Assembly (NCBI GenBank): GCA_037379345.1
Contig: CM074514.1
Span: forward strand, 11,284,001-11,348,000
Direction of reading: 5' to 3'
Length of the DNA: 64,000 bases
Source of the DNA: Perna viridis
Taxonomy: Eukaryota
Made by a program: the position numbers. This document shows, piece by piece, positions 44,301-56,300 of the stretch (position 1 is the first letter of the stretch; every line of letters starts with the position of its first letter).

Positions 44301-47300
44301 CGATTTCCCTTAAGAATCTTATTTTAACAACCATTTTCACTTAGAATTCGATAAAAAAGGAAACAAACGAACAAACAAACAAACTGTAAATTCTCTGATG
44401 AAGATATTGAACCATTCCATCACTTCTAGTAATTTATATTTTATTCAACTGACCGGTACCGGTGTAACCCAAGTCAAGTGTTACAGAAAGTTCAAAAAAA
44501 GGTCAAATATTCAGATTGATATTATACCTCTGAAAATGTTGTGTACTGTAAATTACTGGATTTGAATGACTGGATTTGTATGGCTTTAATCCATGTGTTG
44601 ATATAGATAACAAATTGCATTTTTTGTTAAAATGTGTTGTAATACTTCAAATTTAATGTTAATTAAACTAAAAAAAAATCAGATGCGTAATTTTTCATTT
44701 ATTGCAAGGTAAACATATAATAACTTCGACATCCGTAACACAAAATCGAAAAGATCATCAGGACAAGCCTTACATAGTTACACGCACAGCGAGTCATTTA
44801 TAAAGGTCCAATAAATAAAACATAAGTCACTCCACATGTAATTATAGTAATTGTCTTTATCACTTTCCAATATATGCTACGGTAACAAGGGTAAAATAGC
44901 ATTATCTCCCGTTCCACATTCTGAAAAAAAGAAGAAATGCTTTCATTTACAAATTTTGAAGTTTTTTTTTTTTAGAAAAAGAAAAAAAAACAACAAAAAG
45001 CATTTATCTAAACATATTACTTATGAATTCACAATGCAGGTTTCAAACCACATTCTTTTTCTTCTTTCAATCATGAACATAGATATTTTTCCTGAAATGC
45101 GTAAATGCAAAGATACGGATTAAAAACGATTGGTGGGGTAAATCGATACGTTATCATTTAACTTAGAATTCTATTCTATTAACAAAATATTGTAACTACA
45201 CAAATCGTCGTGAAAAAAAAAAGATGATTTAGCTAGATCTTACCTTTTATCGTTTTCAGGTCAACTCCTTCTAACAGTGTCCATCTTATTTCTGTAATAA
45301 TTAAAAATTTGATTATTATATGGCTGCTATATTCACGAGACAAGTATTTTGAAGGAAAGAAAGAGTTTCGTATATCCATTCTACAGGAAAAAAAACTTTA
45401 TAAAGATTATGACTTCAGTAAAAAGGCAATTTTAGATACTTACAGAAGGACTAGACCTGCTGATTGAGACACTTTTGACAGTCCTAGTTGTTGATACTGA
45501 GCTACGGTTCCTTGTTCTCAATTTGGTCAAAGACGCTTCAGAACTCTCAGCACGTTCCTCTGCATCTTCGAGCTCACTTTGAGCTTTGCGGTATTTAGAC
45601 AGATTGATTGCAGCAATTTCTTCCTACAAAACAACATAATATTTAGTGTTGTAATTAATATAACGAGAATGTATGTGGTGAATACGTCAAAGAGCCAACA
45701 AAGTTTGTTCTTTAATCAAAAACTTTGTTATATATTCAAATTCTTTGCGTATTCAAAAACATATTCCTGAATTACAACCGATTTCTATAATTAATAATTT
45801 AGCATTACCTTTTCGACTTCCAATACCAAAAAAAAGTATAACTAACTAAGTGCAAAGTGTGCTCCTATTTGTTTTCTATAAAGTTGTGACTTAAAATTGC
45901 ACCTTTTATGGAGACGAAAGTTGAGGCCTGTTATTGATTAAAATTACAGATTGCATAGGATCATGGCATAAGAGAAAGAAAAAATGGTACTTACTGCTTC
46001 CTCAACCTGGCGTTTGTATGTCTTGACCTTTGCGTTAAGTTTATCGATCATGTCCTGGAGTCTTTCATGAACCTTGCGATCTTCGTCGCATTGAAATGCC
46101 AACTCCTTCATCCTGCGGTCGGCTTTGCGCATGTTCTTCTGTGTCTCAGCATGACGACGTTGTTCTCCATCGAGTTCACCTTCCAAGTCCCGTACCTGCA
46201 CACACATAATCATGTTGTACATGTAATTTGGAACCTCGGTTGTTAATTCAATTGCATAATCAATTAATGCCTTGATATATCAACCTACCCTATTTCCTTT
46301 ATACTGTGAAATGTTAAGCTTTACGAACCCTCAAGTCATACTAAACAGAATATAAAATACATTAGATTTAGTACTTACTCTCTGTTCAAGTTTGGCAATG
46401 ACTTTCTTGCCTCCCTTGATTCCGCTGGACTCGGCTTCCTCAACACGAACATGCAATTCTTTGATGGTAATTTCTAATGTTTTTCTCATTTTCTCGATCT
46501 GAGTGCTATGTTCTTGTTCAGCTCTAAGCTCGTCAGCGATCCTGGTAGCGTCCATGAGTGCTCTCTTGGCACGGTCATCGGCGGCCTTAATCTCATTTTG
46601 CAACTCATCCAAGTCAGCCTAAAATGAATAAAAATCATGAATTTGATTGTCGAACTTACTGACTACCAGCATATTACATAATTCTGAATACTATAGTGTC
46701 ACATACCAATTAGATATTTTACATGTTTAAAATAATTTTGAAGCATAATACAGTAAAATCAATTACATATTAGTATCCAGCCAACTCTGACTTATGAGAC
46801 ACTGCTTTTATATACATAAAAACATTAATTATGCAATGAGTGACAATATTTCTTCTTTATCACATACTGTACAAGCGGTTGATTTTCTTTCATTTGACAT
46901 AACAGAAATATTTTTTTCTCCTCAATTAAGATTCTTAAGTTTTCGAATAAAATACATGGATTGTTTGTTAAAACATACCATTAATCTGAATAAAAATCTC
47001 AATCTACTACAAAATAAAATTCATCTTCAACAGCATTCTGATTACAAAATACATATTTTTTTTCACTAAATAGAATTTTTGGCTTGATCAAACGACCTTT
47101 TTTTATTGCTAATGATTAACAGCAATTTCTGAAAATTTTATTAAATAGGCCTACATGTATGTGTCTATTGAAACATCTTATGCATCAAAAATCAACCGCA
47201 TTATTGTATATTTGTTTCCTTTATGTGGCATTATTTTTTTTCTTTTTTAGAGGTAGTTTTTCTCCTTTTTATACTTACAGACATGGCTTGCATGTCTCCT

Positions 47301-53300: not shown

Positions 53301-56300
53301 TCCCACTGGATTCCTTCCTTTTTATATTCTTCCTGTTCCAACACGAACATGTGATGGTTGAAGAACTGCTGCAGTCTCTCGTTGGTGTAGTTGATGCACA
53401 ACTGTTCGAAGGTGTTGAACTGTAAGATGAAAATATAAACAGCATCCAGTTAATCATCGTCCAACTTAAAATTTACAGATAATCGGTTACATTTAAAATT
53501 TTGATTTATATTAAATTTACACTTATAGTATATACATTTGATTTTATTGTTTTACTTAGAGAGAAAGACACTTACATCGAAGATTTCGAAACCAGCAATA
53601 TCTAGTACACCAATATAGTAGTTTCTCTTCGCTTTGGTGTCGAGACTGTGGTTGACTCTCTTGACCAACCAAGCAAACAGACGATCGTAAAGAGATTTGG
53701 CCATAGCGCTGATGGAGTTCATGACCTGGGCTTTGTTACGGCCCTGGGCAACAACTTCTGTGCCGACCTTGATCTTTGGTTTGACCAAACATTTGACGAA
53801 GTCGTTGGAGTTGACACCCAAGAGGAAGGAGACCTTCTCGGCCTCAGCGGTACCATCAGGTTCAGCCTGTTCACCTCTTTGTTTAAATTTCATTTCACCC
53901 ATGTGTAAAACGGATGCTGTGCATTTGTAGCAGCTTTTCTTTTCGTCGGCTGTGAAGCCCAAGACGTCAAAAGCGTCCTGTAAATATGGCAAAACATTTT
54001 ATAAGTTGTTACATTAATTAAAACAAGAACATTAACTTGTATATCTTTTTTATATTCTTACGCCTTACTTTCTTGAATAATTGAAAGTGTTCTTTCTGAA
54101 TCTAATTATACGTACTATATATGTGTGTTTAAAGAAACCGACAAAATGTCAACATAGAATAAACTTTTTCTGTGGATTTTCTTTAATTAAAAATATGTTG
54201 TGTCAAGTAAGAGATTTTAACTTACGTCCATGCCTTTCATTTCTTCTTCGTCGTTGATTCCATCGACAGTGAGAGCTCCCTGGTTGATGAAGGTGTACAA
54301 GGCAGCATCTGGCTGAATCAGCATCATCTCGTGGTACTCTGGCATAGCATTAGTCAACAACTGGTAGAAAACGTGGTAGTTTCTCTCAGCGCTCAGACAG
54401 AAGGTGACACGAGACTTCTCAAGCAAGTCTTAAATATAATAGTAAACATATACTAACTGATACAAGAAAAGTTTTTTTGACTTTATGTAGACCAGACTAA
54501 AATAGTATAACAATGCATTTGCTTCCCTCGCGACGAGAGGTTTATTATAACACCTAAGTTAAACCTCAGAGAGCTCCAAAGATATATTATTAAATAATTG
54601 AACCTCTCGGTCCAGTCAGTTAGGTTTAAATGTCAGCTATTTTTATAGACTTAGATGTTGTTTGTGCAACTGAATCATGAATGCAAGCGCTGTAGAAGGT
54701 GGCAACTATTTTGGAAGCAAGCGCTGTATAAGGTGGCAACTATTTTGGAAGCAAACGCTGTACAAGGTGGTAACTATTTAGGTGCTTATTGATCTTTATC
54801 TCCATCTGCATTAATTTTATTGTAAAACAGCATGATAGTAGCATGAAATAGCAATAAATAGTTCAATGGAATAAAAAACGGATCATTTCCTCCTGATTCA
54901 TCAGCTTGTTAATTATACTTACAAGTTTCAATGTCAGCTCCGGCAATCTTGCCATCAGGACCAAAGTGAATACGGATGAACTTTCCCTGTATAATGCAAA
55001 ATTAACAAATGTTAAATGTGTTGTAAAATCTCGAAAATGAACAGGTCGGCGCAAATACTGTTATGTCTATTTTTATGAAAAGTTTTAATGTGTACGCTGT
55101 TTATTAAGCTACTAGATTTTCCCTATATGTTTGATTTGTCATTTTCTTGAGTAAAATTGATTTAATTTTGATAACTTTAAGAAATAAACTAGCGGAAGTC
55201 ATTTTAATTATTAAAAGGGAAAATTGATGTATGCAAAGAATAATACTTACGAATCTAGAGGAATTGTTGTTACGTGTTGTCTTGGCGTTACCGTATGCTT
55301 CAAGTACAGGGTTAGCCTGCACAATCTGGTCTTCAAGGGTACCCTATTTTTTAAATAAAAGCATGTAATTAAACTACTCATCTTCATACAATACATTTAA
55401 CATTTAAGCAGCAACCATTTGTTTTTTATGTGGGGTGTTAGGATCGAATTTTCTATCCTTTGCCTTTTTATTATTATTTCATTTTAAATTTAGGTCCCGT
55501 CTTTTTATGTTTTATTCTGGCCTGTCCTGACATTTTATTTCTTGAAAACTTCAATCCTGCCTTTTATTTCAAATTTTATCCTACCCCCACCAAAATAAAA
55601 TGGTAGTTCCCTTAATCTTCTGTCGGCACTACAATCACACTATAGAGCGACAAATCGTTAAATAACTAAGAAAGTCTATTTTGTTTGTATCACAAGTTCA
55701 AAATCAATATATGTATTCCTGTTTAATCTGTGAACTTGTGATAGGTACCCATATAGTAGAACAAATGACAACAAAATAAATTTTAAAATTTATTAAAATG
55801 GTTTTGTCATTAATATGATTTATCATGTACCTTCTTAGAATCACTCTTTTCCTCTTCATCCTTGTCTTTCTTGCTAAGGGCAGCAGCGACTTTGGCGAAG
55901 TACATGATGACTTTTTTTGTGTTTTCTGTCTTTCCGGCACCAGATTCCCCACTATGAATAAATAGTTTGTATTATTTTTTCTAAAAATAACACAGAATAT
56001 CATTTCCGTTTTTATTTCAATGATAAGAAGTGTTTTAGTGACTTTTTTTGGGGGGGTGGTGGGGGCGGGGGGGGGGGTGGTGGTTTGTTACGGATATTTG
56101 ATTTACAGTCTGTGGATCTTCTGCAGAAAACATATTAAATGGAATAAATATATGATAAAAGGTTTTTATAACTGTAAGACAGTTCTTACAACAAACGGTT
56201 TTATCAAGTATGATCCCTAAATAAGTTAATGCTTTGCAAATATACCTGATTTGCTTCATGATCTCTGTTTCTAATGTGTATTTCGCTAAGTTGTATGTTT

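What the first reader, a model, noticed from the sequence alone, without database searches (positions are those of the whole stretch)
47279..54428. Nine precise intron losses in MHC-B, mostly every other intron
Seen: B exons equal exact sums of A exons: 203=99+104, 402=252+150, 348=171+177, 464=88+118+258, 356=210+146, 454=193+261, 148+579=481+246; 195 vs 127+62 differs only by a 2-aa loop 2 indel. Introns after A exons 7, 9, 11, 13, 15, 16, 19, 21 and 27 are absent, while those after 8, 10, 12, 14, 17, 18 and 20 are kept. Recalled: A exon sizes 99, 104, 150, 171, 88, 118 and 146 match vertebrate sarcomeric MYH exons, so these are likely losses in B. Inference: the alternation does not fit one long cDNA recombination or a retrocopy. 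It suggests many short events or a partially spliced template, strongly asymmetric between neighbouring genes.
Basis: partly seen in the sequence, partly recalled or inferred. Interest (0 to 1): 0.65.

Follow-up and report, generated by a model that had tools for sequence, protein, structure and literature searches.

The report
Nine introns lost from mussel-type myosin gene

Summary
The window carries two tandem striated-muscle-type myosin heavy chain genes on the minus strand. Gene A runs 40477-24558 with 31 coding exons. Gene B runs 58566-45432 with 23.

Nine A introns are absent from B, and eight of those junctions are exact to the base. The ninth sits in a 6-nt loop-2 indel.

Protein-level evidence from other animals (isoform differences and exon-sized gaps in database gene models) places exon boundaries at seven of the nine positions. 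An eighth has weak support and A27|A28 has none. Kollmar & Hatje 2014 conclude that the ancestral bilaterian gene was intron-rich. So these are losses in B, not gains in A.

The alternation is weaker than it looks. Over the whole gene, runs give p=0.10 and adjacent losses p=0.21. Only the post hoc longest alternating stretch reaches p≈0.008.

The losses show no 3' bias, and the lost introns have no distinguishing length, phase, GC or microhomology.

My reading is separate short repair events templated on spliced transcripts in a mussel-lineage paralogue. A single partly spliced template is not excluded. Intron loss in tandem molluscan Mhc duplicates is already published, so this is a new member of a known kind.

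The parts
45432..58566 (-). Gene B: striated-muscle-type myosin heavy chain, 23 coding exons from start codon to stop codon
   Evidence: tblastn with M. edulis P0008. Junctions and phases. Pfam Myosin_N, Myosin_head, IQ and Myosin_tail_1 on single exons. Exon by exon, 85.9% identical to P0008.
24558..40477 (-). Gene A: paralogous myosin heavy chain, 31 coding exons, the intron-richer neighbour
   Evidence: tblastn with P0012. Junctions. Exon by exon, 89.9% identical to M. edulis P0012.
54226..54428 (-). B7, 203 nt = A7 (99) + A8 (104). Former junction between 54330 and 54329.
   Evidence: Outgroup boundary: Macrostomum models lack ref 303-371, and the tick isoform block ref 307-334 stays within the A8 equivalent.
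53576..53977 (-). B8, 402 nt = A9 (252) + A10 (150). Former junction 53726|53725.
   Evidence: The gap in fish model P0042 ends at ref 420|421.
53072..53419 (-). B9, 348 nt = A11 (171) + A12 (177). Former junction 53249|53248.
   Evidence: Outgroup support is weak: the tick variable block starts at ref 471, and its 3' edge is not pinned.
52649..52843 (-). B10, 195 nt against A13 (127) + A14 (62) = 189. A 2-residue loop-2 indel sits at the former junction.
   Evidence: Babylonia isoforms differ in ref 630-651, which equals A14.
52017..52480 (-). B11, 464 nt = A15 (88) + A16 (118) + A17 (258). Former junctions 52393|52392 and 52275|52274. This is the only adjacent pair of losses.
   Evidence: Isoform blocks in scallop, ticks and a spider end at ref 679-681. 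Fish gaps start at ref 720, and the tick block starts at 722.
50812..51167 (-). B13, 356 nt = A19 (210) + A20 (146). Former junction 50958|50957.
   Evidence: Gecko model P0068 lacks ref 1032-1110.
50064..50318 (-). The intron between B14 (148 nt) and B15. It is present in B only, and A21 runs through this point.
   Evidence: A mispredicted 20-residue block in Lymnaea model P0062 ends exactly here, at ref 1111-1130. The intron has no repeat or copy elsewhere in the window.
49485..50063 (-). B15, 579 nt = the last 333 nt of A21 + A22 (246). Former junction 49731|49730.
   Evidence: Mya model P0039 lacks ref 1242-1323, the whole of A22. The tick isoform block ends at ref 1240.
47279..47732 (-). 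B20, 454 nt = A27 (193) + A28 (261). Former junction 47540|47539.
   Evidence: No outgroup evidence was found with the tools.
26457..37162 (-). The span of gene A holding the nine introns that B lacks: 37162-36914, 35793-35535, 35058-34816, 34111-33897, 33388-33159, 33040-32829, 31396-30494, 29637-29317 and 26753-26457.
   Evidence: Lengths are 249, 259, 243, 215, 230, 212, 903, 321 and 297 nt.
55231..55346 (-). B5 plus about 18-20 nt of the following intron, nearly identical to A5 (38625-38740). This is a likely tract of gene conversion between the paralogues.
   Evidence: 96.6% over 116 nt. 30 of 31 synonymous third positions are identical, against a baseline of 53.7%. Alignment.

Best explanation
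A and B are tandem paralogues of the molluscan striated-muscle-type myosin heavy chain gene. They arose by duplication within the mussel lineage. The ancestral gene had all the introns now seen in A, and probably the one seen only in B as well.

After the duplication, B lost nine of these introns, in eight separate places. A lost one at most. Each loss removed the intron exactly.

I infer that each loss was a short homologous repair or conversion event templated on spliced B transcript (cDNA or RNA). Each tract began and ended in the two exons that flank a single intron. In one case the tract covered two introns.

I take the near-alternation to be mostly what independent single-intron losses look like when 9 of 30 are hit, not the mark of a special process.

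Shown:
- the gene models
- the exact sums
- the orthology and the timing of the duplication relative to oysters and scallops
- the ancestral status of most of the lost introns
- the absence of positional bias

Inferred:
- the template (RNA or cDNA)
- the number of events
- their spread in time
For: - Exactness. 8 of 8 testable junctions have no gained or lost base, and the A and B peptides align without gaps.
- Polarity. Exon boundaries appear in outgroup proteins at A7|A8, A9|A10, A13|A14, A15|A16, A16|A17, A19|A20 and A21|A22. Support at A11|A12 is weak. In one search, 21 of 104 gap edges fall within one residue of one of the 31 intron positions, where about 5 are expected by chance (my count from the call's list). 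[quoted passage not shown]
- Separate tracts. There are 8 blocks of loss with kept introns between them, and no 3' bias: the mean index is 15.3 of 30, p about 0.5.
- Short-tract homologous exchange does occur at this locus. Exons 3, 5, 11 and 15 have 82-97% synonymous third-position identity between A and B, against a baseline of 53.7%. These tracts stop at exon edges.
- Time was available. M. edulis has separate orthologues of A and B, which are sisters (SH-aLRT 99). They sit inside a mussel clade with the canonical gene (100), apart from oyster and scallop.
- B looks functional. Frames are open, all splice sites are GT-AG, and it is 85.9% identical to its M. edulis orthologue.
Against: - The longest alternating stretch (10) is reached in only 0.75% of shuffles. 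An exon-size ceiling raises this only to about 1.2%. Pure chance is therefore not a comfortable fit for that one statistic.
- Eight of the nine losses lie within introns 7-21 (p=0.054). The 9-to-1 asymmetry with A (p=0.021) would also fit one burst or a single event.
- The classical reverse-transcriptase model predicts adjacent losses and a 3' bias. Neither is seen (predictions as listed in PMC3652778, passages read).
- A muscle gene is not an obvious germline transcript, and expression could not be tested.
- No outgroup evidence was found for A27|A28.
- All outgroup evidence is indirect. It comes from protein isoforms and faulty gene models, not from genomic intron maps.
Confidence: 0.55

Rival explanations
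1. One event, or very few. A long cDNA copied from a partly spliced B pre-mRNA recombined with the gene. In that transcript the fast introns were already out and the slow ones still in. All missing introns between exons 7 and 22 were removed at once. The loss of intron 27 was separate or part of the same tract.
For: - Eight of the nine losses fall in one 15-intron stretch (p=0.054).
- The alternating stretch is unlikely under independent loss (p=0.0075).
- The asymmetry with A is strong (9 against 1, p=0.021).
- Retained introns in such a template would supply long homology for recombination (inference).
- Odronitz & Kollmar 2008 (PMC2257972; abstract, section 11 and part 1 of section 13 read) already proposed a partly processed transcript as the source of extra mosquito Mhc genes.
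Against: - There is no direct trace of such a template.
- The statistics are post hoc and marginal.
- Lost and kept introns do not differ in length (p=0.98), GC (p=1.0), phase or microhomology (p=0.21). Nothing marks the lost ones as a class.
- The order of splicing is unknown.
Confidence: 0.2
2. Selection shapes the pattern. Losses arise at random, but a second loss next to a first is disfavoured. The reason could be a limit on exon size under exon definition, or a need to keep splice junctions at some density. Neighbours of a lost intron are therefore kept, and alternation follows.
For: - Niu 2008 (PMC2614967, abstract only read) proposes exon definition as a force against intron loss.
- Most further fusions in B would give exons above 540 nt, while the largest exon in B is 579 nt and in A 481 nt.
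Against: - Simulated sequential loss under ceilings of 500-900 nt raises the chance of the observed alternating stretch only from 0.007 to 0.008-0.013.
- B tolerates a 579-nt exon, yet did not make the 543-nt fusion of B9 with B10.
- Introns here are short (124-660 nt in B), which favours intron definition (inference).
Confidence: 0.1
3. Genomic deletion. Each intron was removed by end joining at short repeats at its two ends, with no RNA involved.
For: - Microhomology-mediated intron loss is reported for nematodes and flies (PMC3698931; only the search listing and the start of the abstract were seen).
- Two of the nine lost introns have 5 nt of junction microhomology in A (after A9 and A15).
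- No germline transcription is needed.
Against: - Eight of eight testable losses are exact.
- Median microhomology is 2 nt for lost introns against 1 nt for kept ones, which is not significant (p=0.21).
- Five of the nine lost introns have 0-1 nt of microhomology on each side, summing to at most 1.
Confidence: 0.1
4. The polarity is the reverse. B keeps the older, intron-poorer structure, and A gained nine introns.
For: With only A and B in the window, parsimony alone cannot decide. No tool evidence was found for A27|A28.
Against: - Boundaries at the same residues are seen in flatworm, tick, spider, gastropod, scallop, clam, fish and gecko proteins.
- The literature concludes that these positions are ancestral (PMC3912159).
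- Nine gains at positions shared with distant phyla are not credible.
Confidence: 0.02

Closest known systems
Tandem Mhc gene array of the limpet Lottia gigantea (Kollmar & Hatje 2014, PMC3912159)
   Same: These are tandem duplicates of a molluscan muscle myosin heavy chain gene. [quoted passage not shown] Here too, neither copy has duplicate alternative exons, and one copy has lost introns.
   Different: This is a different lineage (mussel-like bivalve), with an independent duplication. The paper's text gives no count or pattern of the lost introns. Its gene-structure figures and supplements could not be seen, so I cannot say whether a near-alternating pattern also occurs there.
Exon fusions in arthropod Mhc genes (Odronitz & Kollmar 2008, PMC2257972; Kollmar & Hatje 2014)
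   Same: The papers report exact fusion of neighbouring exons of an intron-rich ancestral gene. This includes fusion of formerly alternative exons with constitutive neighbours. Intron loss is named as the main trend.
   Different: In Diptera five consecutive exons are fused into one, so the losses are adjacent. Here the losses are almost all non-adjacent, and they occurred in one of two paralogues in the same genome.
'Partially processed' Mhc3/Mhc4 genes of Aedes and Culex (Odronitz & Kollmar 2008)
   Same: It is an extra Mhc gene whose structure suggested a transcript intermediate as template.
   Different: In that case the alternative exon copies are missing but the ordinary introns are kept. 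Here it is ordinary introns that are missing. B lies in tandem with A and was not inserted elsewhere.
mRNA-mediated (reverse transcriptase) model of intron loss
   Same: Introns are removed exactly from a transcribed gene.
   Different: The model's usual signatures, 3' bias and joint loss of adjacent introns, are absent. Germline expression is untested.

Membership tests
Class II muscle myosin heavy chain (Mhc) | N-terminal SH3-like domain, myosin motor domain, IQ motif and long coiled-coil tail | tested here: met
   Pfam hits on single exons of B and A: Myosin_N (1.7e-16), Myosin_head (down to 4.3e-49), IQ (2.3e-4) and Myosin_tail_1 (down to 1.8e-25).
Class II muscle myosin heavy chain (Mhc) | Closest solved structures are striated-muscle myosins rather than non-muscle or smooth-muscle myosin II | tested here: met
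   The best PDB matches are scallop and squid myosin heads (E 3.1e-60 and 7.6e-66). Non-muscle and smooth-muscle myosins score far lower.
Mhc gene with clusters of mutually exclusive exons | Two or more similar copies of an exon side by side within the gene | tested here: not met
   Each exon peptide of A and B was run against the window. No extra copy was found in any intron. The best off-target hits are weak coiled-coil matches.
Precise intron loss | The intron is present at the same position and phase in the paralogue and in outgroups | tested here: met
   All nine are present in A. Outgroup protein evidence pins 7 of the 9, is weak for 1 and absent for 1. The evidence is indirect.
Precise intron loss | No bases are gained or lost at the junction | tested here: met
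   8 of 9 groups have equal sums and ungapped alignment. The ninth has a 6-nt indel in loop 2 and cannot be judged.
Reverse-transcriptase (mRNA-mediated) intron loss, classical form | Losses are biased to the 3' end of the gene | tested here: not met
   The lost junctions lie at 16-85% of the coding length. The mean intron index is 15.3 of 30, p about 0.5 in either direction.
Reverse-transcriptase (mRNA-mediated) intron loss, classical form | Adjacent introns are lost together | tested here: not met
   There is one adjacent pair among the nine losses. Random placement gives one or fewer in 21% of shuffles.
Reverse-transcriptase (mRNA-mediated) intron loss, classical form | The gene is expressed in the germline | not testable with these tools
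   No expression data were on hand.
Processed or partly processed retrocopy | A copy inserted at a new locus, lacking all or a contiguous set of the parent's introns | tested here: not met
   B lies 4.95 kb upstream of A on the same strand. It keeps 21 introns at the same positions and phases as A. A poly(A) tract and target-site duplications were not looked for.

The most novel reading that the evidence does not exclude
The near-alternation is not chance. It records the order in which introns leave the pre-mRNA. A partly spliced B transcript, with every second intron of the motor region already removed, was copied back into the gene in one step. On this reading B is a fossil of a splicing intermediate.

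A variant reading notes that seven of the nine lost introns flank exons that are mutually exclusive clusters in other protostomes (clusters 5-11). Each such exon is fused to exactly one neighbour. This would fit a stepwise mode of splicing around former alternative exons.
Probability: 0.12. Interest if true: 0.6.

Novelty: new member of a known kind. Interest (0 to 1): 0.3.

Why it matters
The pair offers a clean natural experiment on how introns are lost. Two neighbouring genes share the same exon plan and the same genomic setting, yet one lost nine introns exactly and the other lost one at most.

If intron maps of the orthologues in other mussels show nested intermediates, the case documents serial single-intron losses without 3' bias. 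That would argue for short RNA- or cDNA-templated repair and against full-length cDNA conversion.

If the maps show all-or-none, the case would be a rare trace of a partly spliced template.

As it stands, the finding adds a bivalve example to a trend already described for Mhc genes. It is of moderate interest to people who study intron evolution and of little wider consequence.

Tried and rejected
Explanations tested and dropped:
- Alternative-exon copies as the reason some introns are kept. No duplicate exons were found in either gene.
- An exon-size ceiling as the cause of the alternation. The simulation barely changes the odds.
- Features of lost versus kept introns in A. Length, GC, phase and junction microhomology do not differ.
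- Functional RNAs in the kept introns. Rfam gave 0 matches and tRNA search gave 0. No intron-to-intron similarity exists between A and B.
- A link between lost introns and exons that are alternative clusters in other phyla. 7 of 15 adjacent introns were lost against 2 of 15 others, Fisher two-sided p=0.11. My assignment of cluster 6 to exon A9 rests on the paper's description plus my own knowledge of the motor domain.
- Origin of the B-only intron from a repeat or duplication. It has no match elsewhere in the window.

Routes that gave nothing:
- Dating the losses from M. edulis gene models of the B type (P0007, P0009, P0100). Their gaps are prediction errors or whole-exon skips and say nothing about the fused junctions.
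- The listing of cluster members, to fetch isoform sets.
- The scallop gene paper (Nyitray 1994, PMC45504). It is not held.

Literature searches for prior description:
- Searches for this pattern, or for mussel Mhc paralogues, found nothing to the point.
- The library lacks most subscription journals.

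
Full report
WHAT IS THERE

The window has no N and is 67% A+T. Translated exons from the finding match scallop and squid striated-muscle myosin heads best among solved structures (E 3.1e-60 and 7.6e-66). A protein search with one exon found Mytilus edulis myosin heavy chains as the closest relatives, at 84-85% identity. Nothing suggests human sequence.

tblastn with M. 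edulis proteins shows two complete genes, both on the minus strand and head to tail. Gene B runs 58566..45432 and gene A runs 40477..24558, with 4.95 kb between them.

I built no joined coding sequence or protein for either gene and searched with none. Named M. edulis orthologues served as stand-ins where a full-length protein was needed.

GENE MODELS

I derived the models with a junction search guided by the orthologues, checked by eye at the short exons.
- A has 31 coding exons and B has 23.
- All introns are GT..AG, all frames are open and the phases agree.
- Pfam finds Myosin_N, Myosin_head, IQ and Myosin_tail_1 on single exons.

THE OBSERVATION

- 203 = 99+104
- 402 = 252+150
- 348 = 171+177
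- 464 = 88+118+258
- 356 = 210+146
- 454 = 193+261
- 148+579 = 481+246

Each A exon peptide aligns to its place in B without a gap. One search's total is 1401 of 1832 identical residues. Dropping one non-homologous pair (A22 against B14, 10 of 42) gives 1391 of 1790, about 78%.

A13+A14 is 189 nt against 195 nt for B10. The two extra residues lie in loop 2, right at the old junction. That loss therefore cannot be called exact. The other eight can.

B has an intron (50318..50064) that A lacks.

POLARITY

No eukaryotic genome collection was available, so I used proteins as indirect witnesses of exon boundaries. There are two kinds.

The first kind is isoform sets of one gene that differ only in a block, which marks a mutually exclusive exon. 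I give positions in residues of the M. edulis B orthologue P0008.
- Babylonia isoforms differ in 630-651, which equals A14.
- Scallop isoforms differ in 659-679, inside A15.
- In 32 Haemaphysalis isoforms (the 26 Dermacentor blocks differ slightly) the variable blocks are:
  - 307-334, inside A8
  - 471-477, starting at the first residue of A11
  - 659-681, ending at the A15|A16 codon
  - 722-759, starting just after A16|A17
  - 1215-1240, ending at A21|A22
- 5 Argiope isoforms vary in 656-680.

The second kind is faulty gene models that skip whole exons.
- A fish model has a gap ending at 420|421 and lacks 720-805. A pairwise alignment places the second gap at 725-810.
- Another fish model lacks 720-764.
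- A gecko model lacks 1032-1110. The pairwise alignment gives 1034-1112.
- A Mya model lacks 1242-1323, exactly A22.
- Two Macrostomum models lack 303-371.

In one search, 21 of 104 gap edges lie within one residue of one of the 31 intron positions, against about 5 expected by chance (my count from the call's list).

Taken together:
- Seven of the nine lost introns have an outgroup boundary pinned at the same place.
- A11|A12 has only weak support.
- A27|A28 has none.

Kollmar & Hatje 2014 (PMC3912159; abstract, sections 6, 8 part 1 and 13, and passages read) make three relevant points:
- All motor-domain intron positions are conserved across Bilateria.
- The ancestral gene was intron-rich.
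- Each duplicate in the Lottia tandem array lost alternative-exon clusters and introns.

That is recall and comes from no call. The 79-residue gecko gap (146+91 nt) and an 89-residue sturgeon gap (64+99+104 nt) fit it.

For the B-only intron, a Lymnaea model carries 20 unrelated residues at 1111-1130, ending exactly at the B14|B15 junction. This suggests a small exon there in a gastropod. If so, that intron is old and A lost it. This is the weakest link in the polarity argument.

AGE OF THE DUPLICATION

- Exon by exon, A is 89.9% identical to M. edulis P0012 and B is 85.9% identical to P0008.
- I built a quick maximum-likelihood tree of 34 proteins chosen from the 120 then in hand.
  - The two M. 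edulis genes are sisters (SH-aLRT 99).
  - They join the canonical mussel gene (100).
  - That clade sits with oyster and scallop.
- So the duplication is specific to the mussel lineage, but older than the split between this species and M. edulis.
- The B branch is longer than the A branch (0.22 against 0.15).
- The M. edulis models gave no usable evidence on whether their B gene has the same fusions.

THE PATTERN

Along A's 30 introns the states in B are KKKKKKLKLKLKLKLLKKLKLKKKKKLKKK, where L means lost.

Shuffling 9 losses among 30 introns gives:
- 17 or more runs: p=0.10
- one or fewer adjacent lost pairs: p=0.21
- an alternating stretch of 10 or more: p=0.0075
- 8 or more losses in a 15-intron window: p=0.054

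The one small p-value belongs to a statistic chosen after seeing the data.

Further tests:
- An exon-size ceiling of 500-900 nt, as exon definition might impose (Niu 2008, PMC2614967, abstract read), lifts the stretch probability only to 0.008-0.013.
- Losses show no 3' or 5' bias.
- Lost and kept introns in A do not differ in length (p=0.98), GC (p=1.0), phase or junction microhomology (p=0.21).
- Neither gene has duplicate alternative exons.
- No known RNA family or tRNA lies in the window.
- Introns of A and B share no similarity.
- Seven of the nine lost introns flank exons that are alternative clusters in other protostomes. So do 8 of the 21 kept ones (Fisher p=0.11).

A SIDE OBSERVATION THAT BEARS ON MECHANISM

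Between A and B, third positions of codons for the same residue are identical at 53.7% in 22 exons. In four exons the figure is much higher:
- exon 3: 88%
- exon 5: 97%
- A11: 87.5%
- A15: 82%

Binomial p is 2.7e-8, 1.2e-7, 7.3e-8 and 1.7e-3. The last is borderline after correction.

At exon 5 the near-identity runs about 18 nt into the next intron. These look like short tracts of gene conversion between the paralogues. They end at exon edges, including the two points (A11|A12 and A15|A16) where B has no intron. Short-tract homologous exchange therefore does happen here.

MECHANISM

The exactness argues for a spliced template rather than random deletion. The eight separate blocks and the lack of 3' bias argue against one long, fully spliced cDNA. 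The kept introns and the tandem position argue against a retrocopy.

I favour several short repair or conversion events templated on spliced B transcript, each spanning one junction (confidence 0.55).

A single event from a partly spliced transcript remains open (0.2). It has a published precedent in kind: Odronitz & Kollmar 2008, PMC2257972 (abstract, section 11 and part 1 of section 13 read). The marginal clustering and the 9-to-1 asymmetry (p=0.021) lean slightly that way.

The remaining rivals rank lower:
- selection against neighbouring losses: 0.1
- microhomology-mediated deletion: 0.1
- gains in A: 0.02

COMPARISON AND VERDICT

Intron loss and exon fusion in duplicated or derived Mhc genes is described for Lottia and for arthropods. 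The finding is therefore a new member of a known kind, in a bivalve, with an unusually tidy within-genome control.

I found no paper on this pattern or on mussel Mhc paralogues. The library lacks most subscription journals.

WHAT STAYED UNCHECKED

- Genomic intron maps of any other species.
- The figures and supplements of Kollmar & Hatje 2014, which may already hold such maps.
- The scallop gene paper (not held).
- Expression of B.
- The closed metagenome and viral collections were not needed. The genome collection holds only bacteria and archaea and was not used.

Noticed in passing
window 56349-56533 / 39320-39504; 55231-55346 / 38625-38740; 53249-53419 / 35059-35229; 52393-52480 / 33389-33476: Four exons (3, 5, A11 and A15) are far more alike between A and B at synonymous sites (82-97%) than the other 22 exons (53.7%). 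At exon 5 the identity runs about 18 nt into the intron. These are probably short gene-conversion tracts between the paralogues, and they stop at exon edges.
   Followed up: yes
window 50064-50318 (B) against 29971|29970 (A): B has an intron that A lacks, 148 nt into the A21 equivalent. A mispredicted 20-residue block in a Lymnaea gene model ends exactly at this point, which suggests the intron is old and A lost it.
   Followed up: partly
genes A and B as a whole: Neither gene has duplicate (mutually exclusive) exon copies. The canonical mussel gene appears to have them: an M. coruscus model (P0040) carries extra copies of the P-loop and switch-1 exons compared with P0045.
   Followed up: partly
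window 58723-58950: A tandem repeat of 39/84-nt units (about 5.7 or 2.8 copies, 75-78% matches) lies about 160 nt upstream of B's start codon. It could be part of the promoter region.
   Followed up: no
window 54683-54779: A 34-nt unit is repeated 2.9 times (93% matches) in the intron between B6 and B7.
   Followed up: no
window 50459-50683: An internal direct repeat of about 110-120 nt (78% identity) lies in the intron before B14 and reaches the first bases of that exon. Tandem Repeats Finder did not report it.
   Followed up: no
window 1964-2494 (+), perhaps on to about 16800: Open frames on the plus strand downstream of gene A. One has a weak Exportin 1-like match (Xpo1, E 0.0037, below the curated cut-off). 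Possibly an exportin-like gene on the other strand.
   Followed up: partly
database proteins P0007 and P0012 (M. edulis): The B-type and A-type M. edulis proteins are both listed with a longest contig of 1,416,044 bases. This suggests the two genes are also linked in that species.
   Followed up: no
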